Assembly (NCBI GenBank): GCA_964610875.1
Contig: CAZSWP010000010.1
Span: 1-64,000, forward strand
DNA length: 64,000 nt
Direction: 5' to 3'
Source: an uncultured archaeon
GTDB taxonomy: Archaea; Asgardarchaeota; Thorarchaeia; Thorarchaeales; Thorarchaeaceae
Shown: positions 44,428 through 44,626 of the stretch, piece by piece
Position numbering within the stretch: position 1 is the first letter of the stretch
Layout: the number at the start of each line of letters is the position of its first letter
Made by a program: the position numbers and the translations under genes
Notes under the pieces: model-generated
Seen by the model: the letters and a program-made list of their open reading frames with translations, nothing else
What the model was told of the DNA's origin: nothing
The model's database searches: none

Positions 44428-44626
44428 GCCACCGTGGCTCAGTCAGGTAGATTTGTGCTTTTGACGAAGCACATCGCCGAAAGCGACAGATGCAACGAAT
44501 CCTCGTTGTGCCGCTAAAGCCTGTTATCTTTCAATCAACAGGTTGAGAGTCAGACAGTTGTTGGTCCGAGGTTCGATCATTCTCGCACGTCTGTGGTGAG
44601 GAAAGGAACCCCTCGCGGTGGCGCCA
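44428..44626 (+). tRNA. tRNA-Asn(GTT) with four BHB-type introns (44451-44481, 44488-44517, 44527-44555, 44578-44609)
   Basis: Removing 122 nt gives a 77-nt cloverleaf GCCACCG TG GCTC AGTCAGGTA GAGC G ACAGC CTGTTAA GTTGT TGGTC CGAGG TTCGATC CCTCG CGGTGGC G CCA. Confidence 0.9.

What the first reader, a model, noticed from the sequence alone, without database searches (positions are those of the whole stretch)
44428..44626. tRNA-Asn(GTT) gene split by four introns
Seen: five exons (23, 6, 9, 22 and 17 nt) and introns of 31, 30, 29 and 32 nt at positions 22/23, 28/29, 37/38 and 59/60. Each intron has its own hairpin and a BHB-like junction (bulges AG|A..AA|A, AC|A..AA|A, TA|T..AC|A, AT|C..AC|C). 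Splicing yields a complete 77-nt cloverleaf with G73. A44482 is both a bulge base of intron 1 and a helix base of intron 2, which implies ordered splicing. Known: multi-intron tRNAs are typical of Thermoproteales, with up to three introns as far as I recall. Four introns in an Asgard-like genome would be exceptional and likely missed by standard scanners.
Basis: partly seen in the sequence, partly recalled or inferred. Interest (0 to 1): 0.9.

Follow-up and report, generated by a model that had tools for sequence, protein, structure and literature searches.

The report
Four-intron asparagine tRNA gene, Thorarchaeota
This is a real asparagine tRNA gene, the only one found in this Asgard (Thorarchaeota) genome, cut into five pieces by four ~30-base protein-spliced introns; it is well supported, but this gene layout was already described for Asgard archaea in 2024-2026.

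Summary
Removing 44451-44481, 44488-44517, 44527-44555 and 44578-44609 from 44428-44626 gives a perfect 77-nt tRNA-Asn(GTT) with G73 and an encoded CCA. ARAGORN and the Rfam tRNA model both miss the genomic form, and I found no other tRNA-Asn in the 95%-complete genome.

Nineteen genomes of the same family, some labelled Candidatus Thorarchaeota, carry the orthologous gene behind the same conserved promoter block.
- They hold 1 to 5 introns, at six sites: 22/23, 28/29, 37/38, 43/44, 50/51 and 59/60.
- Exons are 89-92% identical and introns 50-64%.
- The acceptor stem, the T stem and the intron helices covary.
- Rfam recognises the 1- and 2-intron orthologues at the boundaries I derived.

The genome encodes a crenarchaeal-type (alpha-beta)2 splicing endonuclease with the broad-specificity loop, and the RtcB ligase.

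Four-intron Asgard tRNAs are listed in Valentin-Alvarado 2024, and a 2026 preprint reports up to five. This scan has already met four-intron tRNA-Asn genes in other Thorarchaeota, Bathyarchaeota and DPANN genomes.

Ordered splicing around the 6-nt micro-exon is plausible but unproven, and I could obtain no RNA evidence. Verdict: a new member of a known kind, of moderate interest.

The parts
44386..44403 (+). Conserved upstream block ACAGCAAYGTTAATATTG. It contains a TATA-like box TTAATATT (44395-44402) 26-33 nt upstream of the mature 5' end; inferred archaeal promoter.
   Evidence: The block is present at the same distance in all 20 orthologous loci where upstream sequence is available. Promoter function is inferred from position and conservation only.
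44428..44450 (+). Exon 1: tRNA positions 1-22 (acceptor 5' strand, D-stem 5' strand, D-loop, G22).
   Evidence: It is invariant or covarying across relatives.
44451..44481 (+). Intron 1 (31 nt) at 22/23. The central helix pairs G18 G19 U20 with GCC of GCCG (3/4 pairs). The bulges are AG|A and AA|A. The intron hairpin has 7 bp.
   Evidence: Covariation of this BHB across 11 loci: 88.7% of cells paired against 24-50% for slid controls.
44482..44487 (+). Exon 2: the 6-nt micro-exon AGCGAC (positions 23-28).
   Evidence: It is invariant between diverged introns in the five aligned four-intron genes and in all 11 loci with a 22/23 intron. Relatives with only one of the two flanking introns show that the two introns are separate.
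44488..44517 (+). Intron 2 (30 nt) at 28/29. The central helix is a perfect 4 bp, AGCG/CGCT. The bulges are AC|A and AA|A. The intron hairpin has 7 bp.
44518..44526 (+). Exon 3: AGCCTGTTA (positions 29-37), which includes the anticodon GTT.
   Evidence: It is invariant in 20 loci.
44527..44555 (+). Intron 3 (29 nt) at the canonical 37/38 site. The outer helix is the anticodon stem. The central helix is C32-G, U33-A, G34-C plus a U.U mismatch. The bulges are TA|T and AC|A. The intron hairpin has 9 bp.
   Evidence: 97.3% of cells paired against 23-47% slid; 6 pairs with compensatory changes. It is present in all 20 loci.
44556..44577 (+). Exon 4: positions 38-59 (anticodon-stem 3' strand, variable loop, T-stem 5' strand, T-loop up to U59).
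44578..44609 (+). Intron 4 (32 nt) at 59/60. The outer helix is the 5-bp T stem. The central helix is U54-A, U55.G, C56-G plus a G.A mismatch. The bulges are AT|C and AC|C. The intron hairpin pairs 7 of 8.
   Evidence: The same 59/60 site has the full hBHBh' geometry in 13 of 14 relatives that carry a T-loop intron.
44610..44626 (+). Exon 5: positions 60-73 (C60, T-stem 3' strand, acceptor 3' strand, discriminator G73) plus the encoded CCA.
   Evidence: Acceptor pairs 4-69 and 5-68 and T-stem pairs 49-65 and 50-64 covary with 100% Watson-Crick pairing in 20 loci.

Best explanation
Window 44428-44626 (+) is the single tRNA-Asn(GUU) gene of a Thorarchaeota (Asgard) genome. It is probably transcribed from a conserved TATA-type promoter about 30 nt upstream, as a precursor of about 200 nt holding four short introns at 22/23, 28/29, 37/38 and 59/60. 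Each intron presents a BHB or relaxed BHB motif, built from 4 exon bases upstream of the 5' cut, 4 intron bases upstream of the 3' cut, and the intron's own hairpin. The genome's (alpha-beta)2 splicing endonuclease has a catalytic subunit that carries the crenarchaeal broad-specificity loop. This enzyme would cut inside each 3-nt bulge, and RtcB would join the exons to give a 77-nt tRNA with an encoded CCA. The BHBs of introns 1 and 2 compete for the 6-nt micro-exon: A23-G26 is either intron 2's central helix or the bulge base and outer helix of intron 1. These two introns are therefore most likely removed in separate cut-and-ligate rounds, in an order that is not known. Shown here: the gene structure, its conservation, the covariation and the presence of the enzymes. 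Inferred: transcription, cleavage at these sites, ligation and sequential removal.
For: The spliced product is a perfect cloverleaf that ARAGORN calls Asn(gtt). I found no other tRNA-Asn in the genome with ARAGORN, Rfam, BLAST of the mature sequence or an anticodon-arm scan. Nineteen same-family genomes hold orthologues that all splice to tRNA-Asn(gtt), with 1-5 introns at the same sites. Exons are 89-92% identical and introns 50-64%. Compensatory changes occur in stems whose two strands lie in different exons. The BHB helices of introns 1 and 3 covary. Rfam's tRNA model hits the orthologues at my exact boundaries, and the score falls as introns are added: 54.3 bits for one intron, then 39.7, 34.4 and 25.7 bits for three two-intron genes, and no hit for the four-intron gene. 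The BHB quality at the fixed boundaries is rare in the window. The EndA alpha subunit is 191 aa, its best solved relative is the A. pernix alpha subunit 3p1z_B at 1.7e-44, and it has the Y-H-K residues and both positive residues of the specificity loop. A His-less EndA beta paralogue of 207 aa and RtcB are also present. The role of that loop in cutting non-canonical and relaxed motifs is shown in PMC3241643, and Asgard archaea are reported to have this enzyme type in PMC5829648. A conserved promoter block lies upstream in all 20 loci.
Against: Three of the four central helices in this genome have one mismatch. Intron 1 also has two mismatches at the base of its hairpin, so it is weaker than in relatives. 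The relaxed 3-of-4 class is common by chance when flanking helices are ignored (preprint). Thermodynamic folding of the whole precursor does not favour the BHB registers of introns 3 and 4, and it gives no consistent order for introns 1 and 2. The genome is a 95%-complete MAG with 5.8% contamination, so an unassembled second tRNA-Asn cannot be excluded.
Confidence: 0.9

Rival explanations
1. Three introns, not four: 44451-44517 (or a slightly shifted 61-67 nt stretch) is one long intron and AGCGAC is merely intron sequence.
For: With a high intron penalty, a spliced alignment merges introns 1 and 2 into one 61-nt gap.
Against: That reading gives ...GCTAAAGCC..., which breaks the 28-42 pair of the anticodon stem. 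AGCGAC is invariant between strongly diverged flanks in the aligned loci. Relatives carry the 22/23 intron alone (L006, L010) or the 28/29 intron alone (L009, L012, L019), each with its own BHB.
Confidence: 0.03
2. A decayed or non-functional tRNA-like locus whose inserts are not removed, the working tRNA-Asn lying in an unassembled part of the genome.
For: The MAG is 95% complete with 124 contigs. Three central helices are imperfect here. There are no expression data.
Against: Exons stay under purifying selection and stems covary across 20 genomes while introns drift. The promoter block is conserved. None of the relatives searched showed a second, compact Asn gene among the BLAST hits. In this genome nothing else matches the mature sequence.
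Confidence: 0.04
3. Over-fitting: with four free deletions, almost any region flanked by complementary 7-mers can be spliced in silico into a cloverleaf.
For: My own brute-force test showed that loose BHB criteria plus ARAGORN yield many spurious tRNAs from other long candidates.
Against: Here the exon set is fixed independently by alignment to 1- and 2-intron orthologues that Rfam recognises. All 20 products are tRNA-Asn(gtt). Helices covary.
Confidence: 0.01

Closest known systems
[quoted passage not shown] 2024, Nat Commun (PMC11291895, Suppl. Data 4); Goswami et al. 2026 preprint (10.64898/2026.10.13.758758)
   Same: Multiple short introns at non-canonical positions (D-arm, anticodon stem, T-arm). 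Exons of under 10 nt can be read from the four-intron coordinates in the 2024 table (my reading of jumbled columns). Four introns per gene are listed (Freya Arg-TCT, Ile2-CAT, Leu-GAG; Atabeya-2 Trp-CCA), and the preprint reports up to five. Standard tools miss D-arm introns. [quoted passage not shown] Gains and losses recur.
   Different: This gene lies in Thorarchaeota, which the preprint's main text does not name and which falls among its less intron-rich 'other families'. In the published genomes tRNA-Asn(GTT) has only two introns. Here the same gene shows a 1-to-5-intron series within one family.
Multi-intron tRNA genes of Thermoproteales (Sugahara et al. 2007, 2008; as cited in PMC4090602 and PMC11291895)
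   Same: BHB and relaxed-BHB introns at many positions. Several introns per gene. A heterotetrameric endonuclease with the specificity loop.
   Different: From my own recollection, not checked here (paper not held), the maximum reported there is three introns per gene. It is also a different phylum, and the introns there are often related in sequence across genes.
Aeropyrum pernix (alpha-beta)2 splicing endonuclease with the Crenarchaea-specific loop (PDB 3P1Z; Hirata et al. 2011, PMC3241643)
   Same: The catalytic subunit of this genome aligns end to end (E 1.7e-44) with the A. pernix alpha subunit. This includes the loop and the equivalents of K44 and R46 (K and K here) and the catalytic Y, H and K. 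A second, His-less paralogue is present, as for the beta subunit.
   Different: The substrate range of the Thorarchaeota enzyme is untested. The beta paralogue is best matched by the M. kandleri and M. jannaschii enzymes rather than by crenarchaeal beta subunits.
Intron movement between positions in archaeal tRNA genes
   Same: In relative L020 the 50/51 intron is clearly homologous to the 43/44 intron of eight other relatives (about 24/30 identical; score 18 against a null maximum of 4). Its 3' strand is changed to pair with the new exon context.
   Different: This is seen in relatives, not in this window's gene. The mechanism is unknown.

Membership tests
tRNA-Asn(GUU) gene | Cloverleaf with 7-bp acceptor, 4-bp D stem, 5-bp anticodon stem and 5-bp T stem, and anticodon GUU at 34-36 | tested here: met
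   (ARAGORN on the spliced sequence, all stems fully paired). (the spliced products of all 20 loci, this gene and 19 orthologues, are called Asn gtt).
tRNA-Asn(GUU) gene | Universal tRNA nucleotides (U8, A14, G18G19, U33, U54U55C56, A58) and discriminator G73 | tested here: met
   Read directly from the spliced sequence. G73 = 44623.
tRNA-Asn(GUU) gene | Recognition by a tRNA covariance model | tested here: inconclusive
   Rfam RF00005 does not hit the genomic form even at E<=1. It does hit the orthologues with 1 or 2 introns at the same boundaries. The spliced sequence itself could not be given to the tool.
tRNA-Asn(GUU) gene | Mature, aminoacylatable tRNA is produced | not testable with these tools
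Archaeal endonuclease-spliced (BHB) tRNA introns | [quoted passage not shown] | tested here: met
   The geometry fits all four introns at the boundaries fixed by the exons. The central helix pairs 4/4 for intron 2 and 3/4 for introns 1, 3 and 4, so those three are relaxed in this genome and mostly 4/4 in relatives at 22/23 and 59/60.
Archaeal endonuclease-spliced (BHB) tRNA introns | At least one flanking helix (exon-exon h or intron h') | tested here: met
   An intron hairpin is present in all four. In addition, the exon helix is the anticodon stem for intron 3 and the T stem for intron 4.
Archaeal endonuclease-spliced (BHB) tRNA introns | Structure maintained by selection (covariation) | tested here: met
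   Intron 1; intron 3. The central helices of introns 2 and 3 are invariant, so they are uninformative.
Archaeal endonuclease-spliced (BHB) tRNA introns | Genome encodes a splicing endonuclease able to cut non-canonical sites, and an RNA ligase | tested here: met
   EndA alpha with the specificity loop, EndA beta and RtcB. Activity is inferred from homology.
Archaeal endonuclease-spliced (BHB) tRNA introns | Cleavage and ligation observed | not testable with these tools
   No RNA data were available. The preprint states that none exist yet for such Asgard introns.
Split or permuted tRNA gene | Exons on separate loci, or in permuted order | tested here: not met
   All five exons are colinear on one strand within 199 nt.
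Self-splicing group I / group II intron | Ribozyme core of hundreds of nucleotides | tested here: not met
   The introns are 29-32 nt. No intron family was reported in the window by Rfam.

The most novel reading that the evidence does not exclude
The two BHB motifs flanking the 6-nt micro-exon AGCGAC are mutually exclusive conformers: A23-G26 pairs either with intron 2 or serves as intron 1's bulge base and outer helix. A 6-nt exon could hardly stay bound if both neighbours were cut at once. Maturation would then require obligate, stepwise cut-and-ligate cycles with a conformational switch. Relatives that naturally carry only one of the two introns would represent both possible intermediates. 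Together with the 1-to-5-intron series in one family, this would make Thorarchaeota tRNA-Asn a natural system for measuring the order and kinetics of archaeal multi-intron splicing.
Probability: 0.35. Interest if true: 0.5.

Novelty: new member of a known kind. Interest (0 to 1): 0.35.

Why it matters
The gene supplies the tRNA-Asn that the two standard finders run here fail to report for this genome, and probably for many Thorarchaeota MAGs. This is the gap that Kaneta et al. 2018 noted for Asgard genomes (PMC5829648). It also extends heavily interrupted tRNA genes to a lineage outside the published intron-rich Asgard classes. One orthologous gene shows 1 to 5 introns, with presence or absence differing even within genera, and one intron has changed position. 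That is useful material for studying how such introns are gained, lost and moved, and how an endonuclease copes with micro-exons. It does not change what is known in kind.

Tried and rejected
2. Brute-force removal of loosely defined BHB candidates followed by ARAGORN. This was meant to census other hidden tRNAs. It is non-specific (many alternative 'tRNAs' per locus) and hit its combination cap, so I dropped it. It does serve as a warning that in-silico splicing alone proves little.
3. The first spliced-alignment settings were wrong in two ways. They either over-split the 5' half into 2-6-nt pseudo-exons or merged introns 1 and 2. I resolved this with acceptor-anchored alignment and BHB-guided placement of the T-loop intron.
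4. Thermodynamic folding of the full and partly spliced precursor.
   - It gives the central helices of introns 3 and 4 almost no weight, because alternative registers win.
   - It gives contradictory hints on order. Intron 1's BHB becomes likely only after intron 2 is removed. Intron 2's becomes likely only after introns 1 and 3 are removed. No order can be called from this.
5. An upstream GTCACCG (44415-44421) could pair with the 3' acceptor strand. It lies upstream of the likely transcription start inferred from the TATA box, and it is not conserved. Rejected for this locus.
6. Possible shared ancestry between this gene's intron 2 and the 43/44 intron of relatives (alignment score 11 against a shuffle maximum of 4). 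Much of the similarity lies in the 3' strand, which similar exon contexts constrain. I left it as a lead.
7. Sugahara et al. 2007 is not held, so I could not check what is known about ordered splicing in Thermoproteales.
8. tRNAscan-SE and SPLITS are not available, so 'missed by standard scanners' is shown only for ARAGORN and the Rfam model.

Full report
**Observation.** There are five exons of 23, 6, 9, 22 and 17 nt, separated by inserts of 31, 30, 29 and 32 nt. Joined, they give a 77-nt sequence with a 7-bp acceptor stem, a 4-bp D stem, a 5-bp anticodon stem (one G.U), a 5-bp T stem, anticodon GTT, G73 and an encoded CCA. ARAGORN calls the joined sequence tRNA-Asn(gtt). In Sprinzl numbering the inserts lie at 22/23, 28/29, 37/38 and 59/60. 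The genomic form is invisible to ARAGORN, with or without its intron option, and to the Rfam tRNA model even at E<=1. The gene sits in a 478-nt gap between two minus-strand ORFs.

**Splice motifs.** I used the standard bulge-helix-bulge (BHB) geometry. In it, the 4 bases upstream of the 5' bulge pair with the 4 bases upstream of the 3' bulge, and each cut falls after the second bulge base. All four inserts fit at the boundaries that the exons dictate.
- Intron 1: central helix 3/4 pairs (A.G mismatch), bulges AG|A and AA|A, hairpin of 7 bp after two mismatches.
- Intron 2: central helix 4/4 (AGCG/CGCT), bulges AC|A and AA|A, hairpin of 7 bp behind a small internal loop.
- Intron 3: anticodon stem as outer helix, central helix 3/4 (U35.U mismatch), bulges TA|T and AC|A, hairpin of 9 bp.
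- Intron 4: T stem as outer helix, central helix 3/4 (G57.A mismatch), bulges AT|C and AC|C, hairpin pairing 7 of 8.

At these exact boundaries, a motif as good or better occurs at 0.5%, 1.7%, 0.009% and 0.09% of all positions in the window. I take the caution of the 2026 preprint seriously: a 3-of-4 central helix alone is common by chance. My own brute-force test also showed that loose criteria plus ARAGORN can conjure tRNAs. The case therefore rests on comparative evidence.

**Comparative evidence.** A search of 60 related genomes found the locus in 19 genomes of the same family. Identical sequences in the public collection are labelled Candidatus Thorarchaeota archaeon (isolates C14-20, BC, QM1B.10) and, in one case, Promethearchaeota.

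After anchoring on the complementary acceptor strands and realigning, every locus splices to a tRNA that ARAGORN calls Asn(gtt). The genes are 103 to 225 nt long. Counting this window's gene among the 20 loci:

| Introns per gene | Genomes |
|---|---|
| 1 | 1 |
| 2 | 4 |
| 3 | 5 |
| 4 | 8 (including this one) |
| 5 | 2 (L007 and L017) |

The introns lie at six sites: 22/23, 28/29, 37/38 (present in all), 43/44, 50/51 (one genome) and 59/60. A further set of public MAG loci shows the same architectures. Because the loci were recovered by similarity to this four-intron gene, the table may over-represent intron-rich forms.

Several results point to selection on the spliced product.
- In the five genomes with the same four-intron layout, exons are 89-92% identical and introns only 50-64%.
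- The micro-exon AGCGAC is invariant between diverged flanks.
- Relatives carry the 22/23 or the 28/29 intron alone, which rules out a single long intron.
- Acceptor pairs 4-69 and 5-68, and T-stem pairs 49-65 and 50-64, change on both sides and stay Watson-Crick in all 20 sequences. The two strands of these stems lie in different exons.
- The BHB of intron 1 is 88.7% paired across 11 loci, against 24-50% for slid controls, with three pair types at the 17a position.
- The BHB of intron 3 is 97.3% paired, against 23-47%, with six compensating pairs.
- With BHB-guided placement, 13 of 14 T-loop introns sit at 59/60 with the T stem as outer helix.
- Rfam's tRNA model recognises the compact orthologues at exactly my boundaries. 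The score falls from 54.3 bits (one intron) through 39.7, 34.4 and 25.7 bits (three two-intron genes) to nothing for this four-intron gene. This explains why the four-intron form is missed.
- All loci with upstream sequence share the block ACAGCAAYGTTAATATTG. Its TATA-like box lies 26-33 nt before the mature 5' end, at 44386-44403 in this window. I read it as the promoter, by inference.

**Is it the only tRNA-Asn?** ARAGORN with introns finds 36 tRNAs and Rfam finds 30, none of them Asn. BLAST of the mature sequence hits only the exons at this locus. A scan for a contiguous Asn anticodon arm finds nothing tRNA-like. A structural scan (complementary 7-mers, NCCA, and a D- or T-arm signature) shows that the tRNA genes it recovered all encode CCA. 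It also shows this gene, at 196 nt, to be the longest credible one; others reach about 164 nt. The genome is a 95%-complete MAG, so absence elsewhere is probable but not proven.

**Machinery.** The genome has two splicing-endonuclease paralogues.
- The 191-aa protein aligns end to end with the catalytic alpha subunit of the Aeropyrum pernix heterotetramer (3p1z_B, E 1.7e-44). It keeps the catalytic Tyr, His and Lys. It also contains the Crenarchaea-specific loop, with Lys and Lys at the positions of K44 and R46. That loop has been shown to confer cleavage of introns at non-canonical sites and of relaxed motifs (PMC3241643).
- The 207-aa paralogue lacks the catalytic His, as expected of a structural beta subunit.
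- Kaneta et al. 2018 had already reported this enzyme type with the loop in Asgard archaea. They also remarked that incomplete tRNA sets pointed to undetected disrupted genes (PMC5829648).
- RtcB is present.

**Mechanism and order.** The most likely process is transcription from the conserved promoter, endonuclease cuts in the eight bulges, RtcB ligation, and end trimming.

A44482 is the third base of intron 1's 3' bulge and it pairs with T44515 in intron 2's central helix. More generally, G24 and C25 either extend intron 1's motif by pairing with the D-stem 5' strand or belong to intron 2's central helix. The two motifs are therefore alternative conformers. A 6-nt exon held by at most five base pairs would probably be lost if both neighbours were cut together. 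Sequential removal is thus a sound inference.

The order is open. Relatives with only one of the two introns show that either intermediate is a viable substrate. Ensemble folding gives no consistent answer.

**Comparison with what is known.**
- Supplementary Data 4 of Valentin-Alvarado et al. 2024 lists four-intron tRNAs in Freyarchaeia (Arg-TCT, Ile2-CAT, Leu-GAG) and Atabeyarchaeia-2 (Trp-CCA). The coordinates for Freya Arg-TCT imply exons of 8-9 nt (my reading of jumbled columns). In those genomes tRNA-Asn(GTT) has two introns.
- A preprint of October 2026 reports an average of 2.2 intervening sequences per tRNA gene in the three focal families, with up to five per gene. It finds that tRNAscan-SE misses 30% of them, mostly in the D-arm, and that gains were repeated. 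It notes explicitly that no experimental proof of splicing exists. Its main text does not mention Thorarchaeota.
- Earlier notes of this scan describe four-intron tRNA-Asn genes in other Thorarchaeota, Bathyarchaeota and DPANN genomes. So this finding has been met before on other DNA.

**Verdict.** The feature is real and the gene structure is as described. It is a new member of a known kind: the Thorarchaeota tRNA-Asn orthologue of the heavily interrupted Asgard tRNA genes. Its added value is the family-wide series of 1 to 5 introns in one orthologous gene, with differences within genera. In addition, the 50/51 intron of one relative is homologous to the 43/44 intron of others.

**Limits.** There are no RNA data, no tRNAscan-SE or SPLITS run, no species tree for gains and losses, and the genome is a draft.

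Noticed in passing
L007:1411-1635 (-) and L017:1423-1640 (+): Two relatives (genomes G036 and G030) carry the orthologous tRNA-Asn gene with five introns (22/23, 28/29, 37/38, 43/44, 59/60). This leaves two short micro-exons (6 and 6 nt in L007; 5 and 6 nt as placed in L017). All five have BHB-type junctions, and the spliced product is called Asn(gtt).
   Followed up: partly
L020:1472-1605 (+) compared with L007, L012-L015, L017-L019: The 30-nt intron at 50/51 in genome G016 is clearly homologous (about 24/30 identical) to the 43/44 intron of eight other relatives. Its 3' strand is changed (GGCC) to pair with the new exon context. An intron appears to have moved 7 nt within the same gene.
   Followed up: partly
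window 8244-8990 (+), insert about 8469-8501: A peroxiredoxin gene is interrupted by a 33-nt insert with an in-frame TGA, inside the conserved PVCT|TEF motif next to the catalytic Cys. The flanks can form an exon helix ACTCCG/CGGAGT, a central helix ATGC/GCAT and an intron hairpin, so it looks like a BHB-type intron in an mRNA. Another note of this scan had already flagged it; I only confirmed the frame and the pairing by eye.
   Followed up: partly
window 49485-49588 (-): A 104-nt tRNA (Rfam 61.9 bits; ARAGORN with introns calls Val-tac) holds one insert of about 30 nt. ARAGORN's default run on the window missed it. An uninterrupted tRNA-Glu(ttc) lies at 50196-50273.
   Followed up: no
G000 C3:29817-29957 (+), C89:171-303 (-), C16:36037-36166 (-): These are further tRNA genes that neither ARAGORN nor Rfam reported at these coordinates. 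By eye they are a two-intron tRNA-Leu(CAA)-like gene, a tRNA-Lys(CTT) with introns at 28/29 and in the T-loop, and a third of unclear identity. The tRNA genes recovered by the scan all encode CCA. No Cys, Ile or Tyr tRNA was found by the tools either.
   Followed up: partly
window 44488-44517 compared with the 43/44 introns of relatives: This gene's intron 2 resembles the 43/44 intron family (score 11 against a shuffle maximum of 4), mainly in the 3' half GTGCCGCTAA / GTGCGGCTAA. This may be shared ancestry or convergence on similar exon contexts.
   Followed up: no
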